IMG/VR virus record: IMGVR_UViG_3300008255_000209
Location: 1 to 42,694 of that record
Length of the DNA stretch: 42,694 nt
DNA from: a virus
Lineage: Duplodnaviria > Caudoviricetes
Reading direction: 5' to 3' (one strand)
The position numbers and the translations under genes were made by a program. This document shows positions 4,769 through 41,827 of this stretch, one piece after another (position 1 is the first letter of the stretch; every line of letters begins with the position of its first letter). The notes under the pieces are model-generated. The model was given only the letters and a program-made list of their open reading frames with translations, was not told where the DNA came from and ran no database searches.

Positions 4769-4981
4769 TTATGGTGTCACGCACTCCTTCCTGATAACCC
4801 CTACCCCTAAGAATCCTCTAGGGCTGGTTTTAATTTCAAACTCCACGGAATCCCCTTTCGCTATTTCATGAAACGGCCCGACACAGCCTGAAGCATGAAA
4901 GAAAACATCGCTTTGAGTTTCCGGAGACCTGATGAATCCATATCCTTTATCGCTGACGTTGGTGACGATGCCTGAGACCAT
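4769..4981 (-). CDS. Cold-shock domain protein
   Basis: RNP1 KGYGFI, RNP2 DVFFH, 70 aa, GDSVEFEI. Confidence 0.93.
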   Translation of the reverse strand: MVSGIVTNVSDKGYGFIRSPETQSDVFFHASGCVGPFHEIAKGDSVEFEIKTSPRGFLGVGVIRKECVTP

Positions 4982-9463: not shown

Positions 9464-10063
9464 TTATTCTTCTTTTTTTGCCATCAGCAAGCCGCTGAGC
9501 TCCTCCCATTCCACCATGATGGGTTTCTCAGGGCTTGAGACCGTGAGTTTGATTGCGTCTTTCCCCTCAAAGGCTTTTAGCAGTTTTATCAAAAGCTTAG
9601 GGTCGAGTGTGACGGAACGCGTGTCGGATTCAGGCCCGTAAAAAAGTTTATCCATCGGGCCTGTCTCAGGAAAAGTATCAGTCTCTTTTTGGAGCGTTAT
9701 TGATCTTTTATCCATGTTGTCGTCGCATGTTGTAATCTCAATACTGTTTTCTGTTTCGTTTGTGAAAATAGCCTGTTCCAGAATAGGGAGTTTTTGTTTT
9801 TTATTGAATTTGAGGCTTTTCGTTATTGCCGCGCCGTTGAGCAGAATTGGGCTCGAAAGTTCTGCTTTGCTTGTGTCAGGAAAGTCCGGAAATTCGCTGA
9901 TGTCCGTGCTCTTTTCTTTTGTTCTGTCGATTCTTAACATGAGATATGAGTCTGTTGCGTATATTTTCGCCTTATCAATATAGACGTTTCCAAGGGCCGG
10001 CCTGACTGAGTTTTTAGAAACCAGCTTTGCTGCTTCGATGATGGTGGGAGTAAGGGTTTTCAT
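9464..10063 (-). CDS. Truncated DNA polymerase III beta-clamp-like protein
   Basis: RPALGNVYI...ATDSY, FPD, LDPKLL, KPIMV...GLLM resemble DnaN domains 2-3; only 199 aa. Confidence 0.7.
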   Translation of the reverse strand: MKTLTPTIIEAAKLVSKNSVRPALGNVYIDKAKIYATDSYLMLRIDRTKEKSTDISEFPDFPDTSKAELSSPILLNGAAITKSLKFNKKQKLPILEQAIFTNETENSIEITTCDDNMDKRSITLQKETDTFPETGPMDKLFYGPESDTRSVTLDPKLLIKLLKAFEGKDAIKLTVSSPEKPIMVEWEELSGLLMAKKEE

Positions 10064-10073
10064 GAGGTAATTG

Positions 10074-10436
10074 TTAGGATTTAACGGGAAGAGCTTTGAT
10101 AAAGCATTTTAATTGGAAGATGATGCCTTTATAGAGTTCTGAAAAATTGTTGAACTCTTCAGGAGTTAGTTCTTGTAAGTCGGTGTAAATATCAAGTATG
10201 GCTACCGTTTTATGTGTTGCCAGTATAGCTTTTTGTAGTTCTTTTTTAGCTTGTTTTGGTAGGAGTGCGGACGCTTCCGCAACATGTAGGACAATACTCG
10301 TTGAAGTGTTCACGAGGGCAGGGTAGAGACTGCTTTTCTCGAAAATTTCTTTCATGTTTTCGAGTTCGATGAATATTTTTTTCGCCTCCTGATAAACCTT
10401 GTAATCGAGGAAGCGGAAGGTGGTATAGGTTTTCAT
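10074..10436 (-). CDS. Four-helix bundle protein (23S rRNA IVP / Avd-like fold)
   Basis: FRFLDYKVYQEA, SIVLHVAEAS, 120 aa all-helical. Confidence 0.75.
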   Translation of the reverse strand: MKTYTTFRFLDYKVYQEAKKIFIELENMKEIFEKSSLYPALVNTSTSIVLHVAEASALLPKQAKKELQKAILATHKTVAILDIYTDLQELTPEEFNNFSELYKGIIFQLKCFIKALPVKS

Positions 10437-11624: not shown

Positions 11625-11650
11625 TTTCGCACAAGGTATTTTGTGCGAAT
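11625..11650. repeat. Inverted repeat TTCGCACAA/TTGTGCGAA
   Basis: Perfect 9-bp arms immediately after terS. Confidence 0.7.
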
Positions 11651-11903
11651 TACTCATTATCAATGGCTTGTTTATGCGCTTAAATCGTAAGGGGTTGACT
11701 GTTGCCTTGTGGCGAAAGATATATTATACCACTTTTGGAGCTTGAATCGGGCCACCTATATCGAGGGGAGGGTGTCTATGCCCATATGTTCATTTTTGTT
11801 GTTGTATAGACACTGAGAACATAATCTATGAATAGATTATCATTAAGCTTGGCTACCCCTACCCCCCCGCTTGGGACTCCTGTATGTATGTATAAGCATT
11901 CCT

Positions 11904-12077
11904 AACTCCACCGCTCTACCTGCACCACTCACCTTTTTCAAAAAATTTTCCAAAAAAAACTCCACCGCTCTACCTGCACCACTCACCTTTTCTAAAAAAA
12001 ATCCAAAAAATCTCCAACTCTCTCTACTCTCACATTTACCTTTTCTAAAAAAACCCAAAAAAAAATCCAAAAAAAAA
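11904..12077 (+). repeat. 34-bp direct repeats with A-tracts (candidate packaging/terminus region)
   Basis: aactccaccgctctacctgcaccactcacctttt at 11904-11937 and 11958-11991; degenerate third copy ~12012-12044. Confidence 0.8.
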
Positions 12078-12109
12078 TGGTACAGTGGGCGTGATATTTA
12101 AGAAGCCTT

Positions 12110-21438: not shown

Positions 21439-21660
21439 ATGAGTGACACAACCAGAAATTCCGACCTTCTTGAAATGGGGGTTGATGAGTATCCGGAGCA
21501 GGAAGAGGTAAAGAAGACACGGGGCCGAAGGCCCAAAGAAGTAAGTGAAGAGACTGAGGAGGTGGAGGAGGGTGAGGAAGAGGCTGAAGAGGTTGAAGAA
21601 GATGAAGGGGCTGAAGAAGATGAAGAGGCTGAAGAAGAGGGTGAGGAGGAGGGTGAATAG
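21439..21660 (+). CDS. Small highly acidic protein with RGRRPK motif
   Basis: Glu-rich low-complexity tail. Confidence 0.65.
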   Translation: MSDTTRNSDLLEMGVDEYPEQEEVKKTRGRRPKEVSEETEEVEEGEEEAEEVEEDEGAEEDEEAEEEGEEEGE

Positions 21661-37729: not shown

Positions 37730-39622
37730 ATGAACCCAACATTCCAACAGATCGAAGACGCAATCAGGAACAGTCCGGCACTGGAAGACCCCTCTGACCC
37801 AAGAGACCTCCCCGTAGGCGAGTTTCTGGGTGATAGGGTGGAACTACCCACTACCTTCTCTCTCAGACCTCAGATGACCCCTGTACGCAACCAGGTGGGC
37901 CGGGGAACGTGTCATAGCGATGACACAGAAGTTTTAACGGATAATGGCTGGAAACTCTTTGAGAAACTAACAGATGAAGATTTACTGGGGACGGTTAATC
38001 CTAATACTTTTTTTTTAGAATTTCAAAAGCCTTCTGAAAGGCAAAAAATATCGTACAAAGGGGAATTATATACTGTTAGGGGGGCAAGTTTAGATTTTTC
38101 TGTTACACCGGACCATAGAATGTTTGTAAGAAAATTTAATCAAAAAAAAAGAACTCTTGAAGAAGACTATCAGTTTGTTGAAACGAAAGAGATTGGTTGG
38201 TATACAGGGCTTCTTCCTACGACACAAGGTTTTAATGGCACAAGAATAAAAAAAATGTTTGGAATTGAGGGGGATGATTTCATGAGATTCTTAGGGATTT
38301 TTATAGCAGACGGATGGATTTATCAAAGACGAGATTCACAGTATGGATATAAAATAGGTTGCTGTTGTTTTGACGAGAGGTACTATGAAGAGATTTATGA
38401 ATTGTTAATTTCTATAGGGTTTAGAGAACAACCCGCCCGCAAAGGCTACTTCTATTTTTCCTGTGGAAAAGAGATGTACGATTATTTATACCATTTTGCA
38501 GGTCAAAAAGCTCTTAAGAAATTTGTTCCTGATTCGATAAAAAACGCATCCCAATATCAAATAAATTTATTTTTAGATTGGTTTGCAATGGGAGACGGTG
38601 GGGTGAATAAGGGGCAACATCGTTATTATACATCTTCTCCGAGACTAGCAGGCGATTTGCAAGAGCTTCTTCTTAAAATTGGGAAGAGAAGCTCTATTTC
38701 TATTCGTGACCGAAAAAACTATTTCTCAATTATAAACGGAAGAAAAATAAAGCAAACAGCCCCTTCGTATACAATTGGACTATGGAGGAAAAATACTCTT
38801 TCAATAATTGCAAAAAAACAAATAGAAATAGAAGAATATGATGGATTTGTATATTGTGCGACTGTGCCGAACTCAATACTGGTTACTCGCCGCAACGGCA
38901 AAATTCTCATTTCAGGAAACTGTAATGCCCATGCCTGTCTTGCAGTAGCTGAGTTTTTCAACGCTCAGGAGTATAAAAACCCCTCCCTCAATCTCTCGGA
39001 AGAATATCTCTATAAGCGGATCAAAGACATTGACGTGCTTGATTATAATTTTGACGGATATGGCTCCTTTGCCCGCTCAGGAATGAAGGCGCTCCAGAAG
39101 TACGGGGCTTGTGAAGAAGTCACTTTGCCATATCAGGGGCAAGGTAAAGAGGACTCATGGAAGACTCTGGAGTTGACGGAGGATATGGATAAAGAAGCCC
39201 TGAAATATAAAAGTGACGGGTATGTGGCCATCCCTATTACCGTTGAACTCTGCAAACGCACCCTCTTTGAGAAAAACGCACCTTTTGTGATGGGGTTCAA
39301 ACTTTACGAAAACTACAGGGAAGGATATGAGACAGGTGTCATCCCTTTCAAAGACGGGCAGAAGGTGGGTGGACATTTCATTGCCGTCACGGGCTGGAAC
39401 GAAACCCATTTTGAGTGTAAGAACTCATGGGGGTCATGGGGAGATCAAGGCTATATCTGGCTCCCCTTCACCATGATTGATCTGTACTTCTCAGCATGGT
39501 CGATTATTGACCGGGTGGATCGGGATGAGATCAGAAGGGTTCTCAGGACAAGAAGAATCATAAGAGACCGCAAACGACGACAACGGGCAAAAAAAACAGG
39601 TCACACTCTTTCCACTCCTTAA
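37730..39622 (+). CDS. Papain-family (C1A) cysteine peptidase containing an intein; putative lysin
   Basis: DPRD, PVRNQ.G.GT|C, LSEEYLY, GGHFIAVTGW, KNSWG.WGDQGY. Confidence 0.92.
   Translation: MNPTFQQIEDAIRNSPALEDPSDPRDLPVGEFLGDRVELPTTFSLRPQMTPVRNQVGRGTCHSDDTEVLTDNGWKLFEKLTDEDLLGTVNPNTFFLEFQKPSERQKISYKGELYTVRGASLDFSVTPDHRMFVRKFNQKKRTLEEDYQFVETKEIGWYTGLLPTTQGFNGTRIKKMFGIEGDDFMRFLGIFIADGWIYQRRDSQYGYKIGCCCFDERYYEEIYELLISIGFREQPARKGYFYFSCGKEMYDYLYHFAGQKALKKFVPDSIKNASQYQINLFLDWFAMGDGGVNKGQHRYYTSSPRLAGDLQELLLKIGKRSSISIRDRKNYFSIINGRKIKQTAPSYTIGLWRKNTLSIIAKKQIEIEEYDGFVYCATVPNSILVTRRNGKILISGNCNAHACLAVAEFFNAQEYKNPSLNLSEEYLYKRIKDIDVLDYNFDGYGSFARSGMKALQKYGACEEVTLPYQGQGKEDSWKTLELTEDMDKEALKYKSDGYVAIPITVELCKRTLFEKNAPFVMGFKLYENYREGYETGVIPFKDGQKVGGHFIAVTGWNETHFECKNSWGSWGDQGYIWLPFTMIDLYFSAWSIIDRVDRDEIRRVLRTRRIIRDRKRRQRAKKTGHTLSTP
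37910..38920 (+). mobile_element. Intein with LAGLIDADG homing endonuclease (337 aa)
   Basis: Block A CHSDDTEVLTDNGW, block B TPDH, FLGIFIADG and FLDWFAMGDG, block F/G VYCATVPN...ISGN|C. Confidence 0.93.
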
Positions 39623-39851: not shown

Positions 39852-40076
39852 ATGAAAGACCAAGGGGAACTACTGGCGGGATTGGCAAATGATATGAGGT
39901 GGGTCAAGGAGATGCTGACCGAACTCAAACAGGAAATGCCTAAGAGATATGCCCAACGCTGGGTTCAGACGGTGGTTACTTTTATCCTGTCCGGCCTTGG
40001 AGCAGTTATAATAGGAGCAATTATGGGGTTAATTCTCACCAAGCCTCTTTTAGTTTTCCTGCTGAGGTTCGTGTGA
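39852..40076 (+). CDS. Small membrane protein (holin/XhlA-like)
   Basis: N-terminal coiled coil plus C-terminal hydrophobic segment. Confidence 0.6.
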   Translation: MKDQGELLAGLANDMRWVKEMLTELKQEMPKRYAQRWVQTVVTFILSGLGAVIIGAIMGLILTKPLLVFLLRFV

Positions 40077-40082
40077 CCCTAC

Positions 40083-40316
40083 TCACAGATCCTCCCCTGT
40101 TTCAGTGTTTACAATTTTACACGCTAACCTCGTTTTGTTGTGTTTGGAATTGTGAACCCCAAAACATTCCTGAAGAGTAAAAACAAGGTTAAGGAAGGCT
40201 CTTTGTTCGCTCTCAAACTCTTCTCCTTTGGGATCAATTTCAAAAACATGTAAGCCGTCTTCCGTTCTCATTAGATACCCGTTTACTCCTTTCTCGACTT
40301 TAACAGAAAATTCCAT
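40083..40316 (-). CDS. Hypothetical protein
   Basis: ATG at 40316 (MEFSVKVEKGVNGY...). Confidence 0.65.
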   Translation of the reverse strand: MEFSVKVEKGVNGYLMRTEDGLHVFEIDPKGEEFESEQRAFLNLVFTLQECFGVHNSKHNKTRLACKIVNTETGEDL

Positions 40317-40493
40317 AGTTTTTTGTAATCGAATAAAAATGCTTTTGTAATTCCCTAAAGTGATTTTTGTAAACCCCTCCACCCCTATGTTTTTTGGTCA
40401 AGTAAAAGACAAAAAAGCCGAAAGGGGGAGAGGAGGAGATCAAAGGCTTTAGTTGTGGGCCTTTGGTCAATTGGAAGGATACCATAAACCCCC

Positions 40494-40523
40494 TTGACTC
40501 CGAAGAGGTAGGGAAGATATGGT
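40494..40523 (+). promoter_or_regulatory. Candidate promoter of the large ncRNA
   Basis: TTGACT-18 bp-TATGGT with no credible ORF downstream. Confidence 0.55.
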
Positions 40524-40529
40524 ATTTGG

Positions 40530-41325
40530 TGTAACTCCAAATCAAGTATGACTAATCAAGTATGACTGCTGAACACACACAACGCAAGCAAAAAACTCCC
40601 CTGACTGTTGATAGGGGGGTAAAGGATTTTTGGGAACGCAAATTGCGGAAATCAATGCCAAAAATAAAAAAAGATAATTCTCCCCCATGGTGGGGAAAAT
40701 CAAAGCTGTGGAGGAAAGACTCACAGCGTATTTATGGGTAGCCAGTATTAAATTTCAGTGATGTCATACTGGTGAGTTCGGTCAAATGTCCTTTGAAACT
40801 TTATTGGGAAACTGCAAAACGCCCTGGACCGAGATGATATGGCCAGGGTAAAACCTCTAAAACTGGAGTGAAATGCCCCTTGGAAGGGGAGATCCAGTAT
40901 AATGAGCTTTAACAATTCTGTATAACCGCGATTCCGTACAGATTTAGAAATAATAAAGACAAGAAGGCAGGTGAAAGGTAGATGCAAAGGCGGGTCTAAC
41001 GAACGTACTTACAAGCTATCCGTTACCAGTGATATTGAACCGCTCTGATAAATCAAGGGCTGCAATCACTCCTGACTAACACCTTCTTTTTTATTTCATT
41101 GGTAAAGCTATAATCACACTTCTGCGAATTCCCCTGGTAGTGCGGGGGCTGGTATAATGAAACCAAGGTAACAAAAGAGGGATAATTCCAATAAAGTAGT
41201 AACAGGTTGAAAAAAGCTCCTTGCTTAAAGGAAGCCTGGACTGAAACCTAATTCAGGGTGGTGGGGGGTTTCTCTCTTCTCTTCACTGAGACCTTTGTAT
41301 CTCTCCTTCCAACCAATAGATACAA
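40530..41325 (+). ncRNA. Candidate giant structured ncRNA (GOLLD/ROOL size class; boundaries approximate)
   Basis: ~800 nt without credible ORF in a gene-dense genome; more than 12 helices, multiloops and apparent pseudoknots. Confidence 0.7.
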
Positions 41326-41326
41326 C

Positions 41327-41827
41327 CTAAGCCGCCTCCCCTTTCACGACATTACTGGGGTTAAGAGAAAGCATTGTCATAGCAAACGAGAAGGAATCCA
41401 GTATCTTCTCTTCATTCTCTTCCAATTGGCCCTCAATAACGGGGATCGCCATGAACCGCTCAAGATTAGCTTTTAGGGGTTCTTTTATGGTTTCGTCCTG
41501 AAACCCACATATCAGGCCATGATTTTCGTTCAGGACTTTTGTGGCTTCCTGCATAGTCCCCCTCAACCTATTCCGAAGACCCTGTACCACGGCCAGGTCA
41601 TAAGCCAGCTCAAAGGTAAGCTTATCAGCCGGCACGACAATGTTTTTCCGGTCACACTTCCCCGCTCTCTGAACCCGCTTCAAACAATCTTCGAGCATTT
41701 CTTTTACCTCTTTGAAAATGGTAAAAATCCGAGCCATAGAATCAAGACTCGCAAGTCTTACTTCATCCCATCTGGAATGAAGAGGTTTGCAACTTTCATA
41801 AATAGTGCTAAGTTTTTGCTCCTTCAT
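41327..41827 (-). CDS. Hypothetical helical protein
   Basis: 166 aa, ATGA-coupled to the upstream gene. Confidence 0.7.
   Translation of the reverse strand: MKEQKLSTIYESCKPLHSRWDEVRLASLDSMARIFTIFKEVKEMLEDCLKRVQRAGKCDRKNIVVPADKLTFELAYDLAVVQGLRNRLRGTMQEATKVLNENHGLICGFQDETIKEPLKANLERFMAIPVIEGQLEENEEKILDSFSFAMTMLSLNPSNVVKGEAA

What the first reader, a model, noticed from the sequence alone, without database searches (positions are those of the whole stretch)
40494..41325. Candidate giant, pseudoknotted phage ncRNA next to the lysis cassette
Seen: the longest gap without a credible ORF, preceded by TTGACT-18-TATGGT and tiled with helices on the + strand: ACTCCCCT/AGGGGGGT (40595-40620), GCTGTG/CACAGC (40705-40727), CCAGTAT/ATACTGG (40742-40772), CCCTGG/CCAGGG (40822-40848), ACTGGA/TCCAGT enclosing CCCCT/AGGGG (40862-40898), TCTGTA/TACAGA (40917-40942), long-range AAGAAGG/CCTTCTT (40961-41088) enclosing AGTGAT/ATCACT, TTTCATT/AATGAAA (41094-41162), CAGG/CCTG enclosing a CCTT/AAGG hairpin (41203-41238), TTGTATCT/AGATACAA (41295-41325). 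Crossing pairings TTCGGTC(40777)/GACCGAG(40827) and GTTACC(41022)/GGTAAC(41167) suggest pseudoknots; linkers are A-rich. Known: GOLLD and ROOL are phage-associated RNAs of several hundred nt with unknown function. Inference: a divergent member of such a class or a new large RNA, possibly chaperoned by the phage Csp.
Basis: partly seen in the sequence, partly recalled or inferred. Interest (0 to 1): 0.9.

Follow-up and report, generated by a model that had tools for sequence, protein, structure and literature searches.

The report
Orphan giant phage RNA candidate
A gene-free kilobase at the end of an uncultured phage's structural genes likely encodes a large folded RNA: it carries one hallmark RNA motif that chance rarely gives and matches no catalogued RNA family, but no relative was found, so its fold and job remain untested.

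Summary
It arose in 0 of 2000 shuffles, in 3 of 400 when any of seven motifs on either strand counted, and twice in 1.47 Mb of related phage DNA. Folding extends upstream to about 40370 (z -3.48). Rfam finds nothing, while the GOLLD and ROOL models score positive controls at 261 and 130 bits. No homologue was found in 68 related phage records, five pattern scans or three samples of about 400 genomes, so covariation is untested; no RNA run was listed. Csp chaperoning has no support. Verdict: probably (0.58) a real orphan large RNA, not GOLLD or ROOL; the rival is a promoter/terminator zone with chance helices.

The parts
40370..41325 (+). Candidate large structured RNA; both ends uncertain (5' end 40370-40550)
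   Evidence: ORF-free; purine-rich + strand; folds; no Rfam match
40370..40527 (+).
   Evidence: 40314-40560: z -3.48 on + (0 of 200 shuffles) against -2.18 on -; hairpin 40436-40470 is -17.0 on + and -9.5 on -
40551..40777 (+).
   Evidence: pair probabilities 0.8-0.9 for the 8-bp and 6-bp parts; z -2.68 on + and -3.07 on -; repeat
40790..40809 (+). 5' arm of the bulged-G helix: CCUUU, GAA (40795-97), then a 12-bp arm 40798-40809
   Evidence: (p 0.97)
41186..41206 (+). 3' arm of the bulged-G helix: 12-bp arm 41186-41197, AGUA (41198-201), then ACAGG
40783..41209 (+). Core multibranch domain (427 nt): hairpins 40821-49, 40862-98, 40917-42, subdomain 40961-41088, hairpin 41131-48; three AUAAU linkers, two directly after predicted helix ends (40899, 41110) and one in a hairpin loop (41154)
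   Evidence: ensemble diversity 0.112 against 0.245 +- 0.057 (about 1 of 40 shuffles; minus strand 0.186); helices p 0.75-0.99; TATAAT 3 times, 6 of 2000 shuffles
41022..41172 (+). Possible pseudoknot GUUACC 41022-27 / GGUAAC 41167-72; unproven
   Evidence: present; chance-level length; competes with a nested helix
41210..41325 (+). 3' tail, weakly folded; 41299-41312 can pair with 40880-93 (14 bp) or 41304-12 with 40471-79 (9 bp, a possible closing helix)
   Evidence: z -0.30; helices
40665..40702 (-). Terminator-like hairpin with a U run on the minus strand; central to the rival reading
   Evidence: 11 pairs, tail TCTTTTTTTA
41150..41158 (+). Perfect extended -10 box TGGTATAAT without a -35 box; promoter or chance
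   Evidence: 44 of 2000 shuffles; 3 such boxes in the genome
40083..40313 (-). 77-aa ORF of unknown family, next to and divergent from the element
   Evidence: Atlas hits only 0.85-0.86, hypothetical phage proteins
37730..40076 (+). Context: intein-containing papain-family peptidase and two small hydrophobic ORFs (holin-like by inference)

Best explanation
The gene-free kilobase after the phage's structural and presumed lysis genes likely encodes a large (about 0.8-0.95 kb) folded RNA on the + strand, which would work like the GOLLD and ROOL RNAs as a protein-independent structural RNA made late in infection, without belonging to either family. Shown: no long reading frame, a bulged-G sequence motif in exact register on a 12-bp long-range helix on the + strand only, and no Rfam match. 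Inferred: transcription as the 3' end of the late operon (no + strand terminator-like site between 39974 and 41263), release or protection by the upstream hairpins, a multibranch core whose A-rich linkers and bulged-G arm make tertiary contacts. Inferred by analogy only: self-assembly into an oligomeric cage or scaffold (about 0.25 overall).
For: Bulged-G motif with 11 Watson-Crick pairs inside and 4 of 5 outside: 0 of 2000 dinucleotide shuffles, 0 of 202 other strand-windows of the genome, none on the minus strand. 3 of 400 shuffles when any of seven internal-loop motifs on either strand counts. A looser form occurs 2 times in 1,469,030 bases (both strands) of related phage DNA and once in this window, here. 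The GOLLD control carries a GAA/AGUA pair on a 9-bp helix, and bulged-G motifs are listed for OLE, ROOL and GOLLD structures (PMC12286853 supplement 1). The core domain folds to a well-defined ensemble on +. Confident pairs number 107 on + against 76 on -, and 47-58% of unpaired bases on + are A. 7 of 11 hairpins are more stable on +, by up to 7.5 kcal/mol. Weak global z is no objection, since true ROOL scores -1.09. Size and phage location fit GOLLD/ROOL (PMC5737381, PMC12286853 passages).
Against: No homologue in any search, so no covariation. The motif thresholds were set after I saw the motif; a loose version occurs in 33 of 2000 shuffles and 2 of 202 genome windows, and true ROOL fails my test. 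Local folding is not unusual for this genome. The 5' domain folds as well on the minus strand. No tRNA in this phage, unlike typical GOLLD/ROOL contexts. ORF-poor gaps of 550 nt or more are common in relatives. The best terminator-like site is on the minus strand; there is no convincing + strand promoter or terminator.
Confidence: 0.58

Rival explanations
1. The gap is the zone where late (+) and early (-) transcription converge: terminators, promoters and untranslated tails, with helices that are chance or simple mRNA-stabilising hairpins; there is no single large RNA.
For: Minus-strand terminator-like hairpin 40702-40675 with a U run, 6 terminator-like sites against 2.6 +- 1.7; three TATAAT boxes, one extended, on +; helix counts near chance; similar-sized gaps in relatives hold promoter-like and small-gene sequence; no conservation in 68 related records.
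Against: It does not explain a 12-bp helix spanning 400 nt with a bulged-G motif in register. None of the TATAAT boxes has a -35 box, and two directly follow predicted helix ends. At 42% G+C the gap is richer than 35 of the 36 relative gaps measured (26-41%; one 47%).
Confidence: 0.3
2. The element is a strongly diverged or rearranged GOLLD or ROOL RNA that the Rfam models miss.
For: Size; bulged-G motif; by eye, 40700-40795 has a hairpin-GUAU-GUAGCC...GGUGA order resembling ROOL consensus positions about 300-420 as printed; ROOL has only 10 highly conserved nucleotides (PMC5737381).
Against: No match at E 10, while controls score 130 and 261 bits. Pairwise alignment to the ROOL and GOLLD controls is no better than shuffles (p 0.19 and 0.76). 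My three single-sequence models do not hit either control. The conserved GOLLD 3' end of the consensus is not seen.
Confidence: 0.07
3. The element is a catalytic or mobile RNA (intron-derived ribozyme, RNase P-like, tmRNA-like) or the remnant of one.
For: Large multibranch fold; the phage carries other selfish elements (an intein, an HNH gene).
Against: No match to any Rfam family beyond five chance hits at E 3.6-6.6; ARAGORN finds no tmRNA; it interrupts no gene and has no reverse transcriptase or nuclease gene beside it.
Confidence: 0.05

Closest known systems
GOLLD RNA (Rfam RF02032)
   Same: About 800 nt, phage-borne, A-rich linkers, a GAA/AGUA bulged-G motif with GAA on the 5' side next to a long-range helix (control L175)
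   Different: No model match; here the long helix lies inside the motif, in GOLLD outside it; GOLLD's conserved 3' hairpins are not seen; no tRNA nearby
ROOL RNA (Rfam RF03087)
   Same: Phage-associated, multibranch, weak MFE signal (z -1.09), bulged-G motifs (PMC12286853 supplement 1); a faint by-eye likeness of 40700-40795 to the P8-P9 region
   Different: No model match; about 250-350 nt longer than the 581-nt mean; pairwise score at shuffle level; its three pseudoknots are not demonstrable here
OLE and raiA RNAs
   Same: Large ornate bacterial RNAs of unclear function; OLE has bulged-G motifs
   Different: No Rfam match; known from bacterial chromosomes rather than phages (recalled); no oapA- or raiA-like gene among the neighbours scanned

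Membership tests
GOLLD | Match to covariance model RF02032 (conserved 3' domain) | tested here: not met
   0 matches at E 10; control phage JX01 scores 260.6 bits. Two other sets of hoped-for controls were negative: and 3 of 4 records
GOLLD | Length around 700-830 nt | tested here: inconclusive
   The ORF-free span allows 800-950 nt, but the ends are not mapped
GOLLD | Often beside tRNA genes in phages or prophages | tested here: not met
   Phage yes; 0 tRNA genes in the window; about 4 kb of the genome may be missing
GOLLD | Homo-oligomeric cage through kissing loops and A-minor contacts | not testable with these tools
   Needs cryo-EM or mass photometry
ROOL | Match to covariance model RF03087 | tested here: not met
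   0 matches at E 10; control pMP118 scores 130.4 bits
ROOL | [quoted passage not shown] | tested here: inconclusive
   A multibranch fold is predicted; pseudoknots are at chance level; no homologues for covariation
OLE, raiA, RNase P, group I/II intron, tmRNA | Match to their Rfam models or ARAGORN | tested here: not met
   no separate positive controls were run for these families
Large ornate structured RNA (as a kind) | Recurrent 3D RNA motif in helical register | tested here: met
   Bulged-G motif; the motif consensus is recalled, and its presence in OLE, ROOL and GOLLD was read
Large ornate structured RNA (as a kind) | Covariation among homologues | not testable with these tools
   No homologue found in any search
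Large ornate structured RNA (as a kind) | Expressed as a discrete abundant transcript | not testable with these tools
   No run was available to lay reads on

The most novel reading that the evidence does not exclude
This is the founding member of a third family of giant phage RNAs, up to about 950 nt and so longer than typical GOLLD, in a small tRNA-less podovirus-like phage of an ultra-small (Patescibacteria- or DPANN-type) host, made with the late genes and folding into a protein-free cage or scaffold of a new architecture.
Probability: 0.3. Interest if true: 0.85.

Novelty: new variant of a known kind. Interest (0 to 1): 0.5.

Why it matters
Only two classes of giant phage-associated RNA (GOLLD, ROOL) appear in the papers I read; both form protein-free cages and neither has a known function. 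An unrelated third architecture would address the question, left open in PMC12286853, whether cage formation is general among large natural RNAs. A copy in a phage without tRNA genes would test the idea that these RNAs store or accompany tRNAs. The sequence can be transcribed in vitro and probed at once. As a singleton without covariation or expression data it is a candidate, not a discovery.

Tried and rejected
Homologue searches, all negative. blastn in 50,697 phage records: no match at E 1; sub-segments gave only short hits at E 1-4. Plasmids: best hit 27 of 28 bases (E 0.06) in a cyanobacterial plasmid, flanks unrelated. Capsid relatives (37-64% identity; 18 loci, 70): 18 records and 50 of the 52 new ones searched by BLAST, only 14-27-base hits. 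90 stretches from 43 records searched by nhmmer and three single-sequence covariance models, nothing under E 1 (the better scores are loci preselected as BLAST seeds). Five pattern scans of viral contigs gave 32, 39, 35, 53 and 119 loci, none extending (116/125, 123/125). The pattern was mis-specified and does not match the query itself; one search stopped after 39 of 64 parts. The holin-like ORF found no viral relative; the adjacent 77-aa ORF found only this record in metagenome contigs. Genome samples: 0 of 401, 2 of 401 and 3 of 401 short A-rich hits that do not extend; models 0 of 150, 0 of 33, 0 of 150. These searches had no positive control genome, and single-sequence queries miss homologues below about 65-70% identity. 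GOLLD in 0 of 50 related records; Rfam on 18 of the 90 stretches gave tRNAs only. The search among protein representatives never ran. Earlier findings: no look-alike by sequence, none for this genome. Literature: five searches showed no listing that describes such an RNA; the library lacks most subscription papers, and the GOLLD alignment of PMC12286853 (supplement file S3) could not be read.

Full report
Setting. The window is a whole 42,694-base virus record, linear and estimated 95% complete; a 46,954-base assembly with identical proteins exists elsewhere. It has a terminase, a DnaB helicase, an HNH nuclease, a cold-shock protein, an SU10-type adaptor and an M23 peptidase; 'podovirus-like' is my inference from the gene set. 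Standard code is used and the starts mostly lack a Shine-Dalgarno motif by inspection. Capsid relatives are 37-64% identical. In GTDB they lie on five contigs labelled Taylorbacteria, Woesearchaeota, Clostridia, Gammaproteobacteria and Saccharibacteria, which may be mis-binned. A Patescibacteria-type host is a guess, not a result. The element lies between the end of the + strand late genes (peptidase 37730-39622, two small hydrophobic ORFs ending at 40076), a 77-aa minus-strand ORF (40083-40313) and the stop of a minus-strand gene at 41327.

Observation. Every listed arm is present and the gap is the longest in the window; it is not a recoded gene. The list overstates the structure. Perfect 6-bp helices number 75 against 69 +- 9 in shuffles, so the two crossing pairings carry no weight, and each competes with a nested helix of probability about 0.9. 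Local stems are enriched (11 against 5.1, 1% of shuffles) but 7 of 53 genome windows reach the same count. The whole region folds at z -1.83, and its 200-nt windows are ordinary for this genome (which covered positions 114-27514 only). Controls show that this test discriminates poorly: ROOL of pMP118 scores -1.09 and GOLLD of phage JX01 -3.87. The proposed promoter is one of 57 matches of 9/12 or better in the genome and sits within a hairpin.

New evidence. A 12-bp helix (11 Watson-Crick pairs) joins 40798-40809 to 41186-41197 with probability 0.97. Directly outside it GAA (40795-97) faces AGUA (41198-201), followed by U-A, one mismatch and CCU/AGG. This is the sequence signature of the bulged-G or loop E motif (consensus recalled; bulged-G motifs are tabulated for OLE, ROOL and GOLLD in PMC12286853 supplement 1). 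The strict pattern arose in 0 of 2000 shuffles and 0 of 202 other strand-windows; a loose one arose in 33 of 2000 and 2 of 202. With any of seven motifs on either strand the rate was 3 of 400. An intermediate pattern occurs twice in 1.47 Mb of related phage DNA, both times inside ORFs, and once in this window. The thresholds were chosen after seeing the motif, so these rates flatter it; GOLLD passes only the loose test and ROOL neither. The enclosed 427-nt domain has an unusually well-defined ensemble on + (0.112 against 0.245 +- 0.057; minus strand 0.186), more confident pairs on + (107 against 76) and A-rich unpaired bases. TATAAT occurs three times on + (6 of 2000 shuffles), never with a -35 box, and twice directly after a predicted helix end; it may be a repeated RNA linker or promoter boxes.

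Family tests. Rfam gives nothing at gathering thresholds and five irrelevant hits at E 3.6-6.6. The ROOL and GOLLD models find nothing at E 10 in the record while scoring controls at 130 and 261 bits. Pairwise alignment to both controls is at shuffle level, and models built from three parts of the element do not hit them. A by-eye likeness of 40700-40795 to the ROOL P8-P9 region is noted but not significant. There are no tRNA or tmRNA genes. It is therefore not filed under GOLLD or ROOL.

Homologues. None was found: phage and plasmid collections, 68 capsid-related records, 90 fetched stretches, five pattern scans of viral contigs (one mis-specified, one truncated), a metagenome scan through the adjacent ORF and samples of about 400 genomes each around two possible host groups (models in 109, 135, 139). 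The neighbouring proteins are near-singletons too, so the blank mostly reflects an isolated phage and insensitive single-sequence queries. It leaves covariation untested and shows that the element is not a recognisably conserved feature of the phage group.

Mechanism. Most likely (0.58) the stretch is a gene for a large + strand RNA read as the tail of the late operon: one search shows no + strand terminator-like site between 39974 and 41263. The RNA would be protected by upstream hairpins and fold into a 5' domain, a multibranch core closed by the bulged-G arm, and a loose 3' tail that can pair back to 40471-79. The transcription route and fold are predicted. By analogy with GOLLD, whose level rises during lysis, and with the GOLLD and ROOL cages (PMC12286853, passages; PMC12990946, passages), it would act as a protein-free scaffold or cage late in infection; this step is analogy only (about 0.25). 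The main rival (0.30) is a convergence zone of promoters and terminators: the best terminator-like site is on the minus strand at 40702-40665, an extended -10 box lies at 41150, and gaps of this size are common in relatives. Csp involvement is unsupported: one of 43 fetched relatives has a similar Csp and shows no match to the RNA.

Papers seen: PMC12286853 (12 passages, list of supplements, part 2 of supplement 1 plus search hits, part 1 of supplements 3 and 4); PMC5737381 (8 passages); PMC12990946 (10 passages); PMC6064168 (2 passages); PMC6582537 (5 passages); all others as search listings only. Earlier AI notes of this scan describe other orphan large RNAs in Patescibacteria and phages, but none is a sequence look-alike and none was used as support.

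Verdict. Observation partly confirmed and interpretation partly supported: a plausible orphan giant RNA resting on one strong motif, without covariation or expression data. Interest 0.5; if it proves to be a third giant phage RNA family, 0.85.

Noticed in passing
window 37730-39622 (+); insert about 37910-38920: The papain-family (Peptidase_C1) gene carries a 337-aa intein-like insert with a LAGLIDADG domain, starting with Cys and ending in Asn before a Cys that is probably the catalytic one. Similar long peptidases lie upstream of the portal gene in relatives L045 and L049.
   Followed up: partly
window 40540-40567: Perfect tandem duplication of a 14-mer; either copy can pair with 40763-40770. 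Could be an operator pair or a register switch.
   Followed up: partly
window 40898, 41109, 41153: Three perfect TATAAT hexamers on + within 260 nt (3 of 13 on that strand of the genome; 6 of 2000 shuffles), one an extended -10 box, none with a -35 box.
   Followed up: partly
window 11633-12109: Gap before the terminase gene holds a duplicated 30-nt pyrimidine-rich unit and further degenerate A/C-rich repeats; possibly a packaging or origin region.
   Followed up: no
whole window: Most gene starts are preceded by U-rich sequence without a Shine-Dalgarno motif, a hint at the host group.
   Followed up: no
window 10074-10436 (-), 9464-10063 (-), 4769-4981 (-): Host-like genes: a four-helix-bundle protein (weak 23S_rRNA_IVP hit), a sliding-clamp-like protein and a cold-shock protein.
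   Followed up: no
L031 11174-13172 (G005): A related 48.8-kb phage carries an array of 16 tRNA genes without GOLLD or ROOL.
   Followed up: no
L253-L254 (G039): A related phage has many long stretches without a table-11 ORF of 85 aa, which may mean stop-codon recoding.
   Followed up: no
window 21439-21660 (+): 73-aa ORF ending in a very long acidic, Glu-rich tract after the capsid-associated genes.
   Followed up: no
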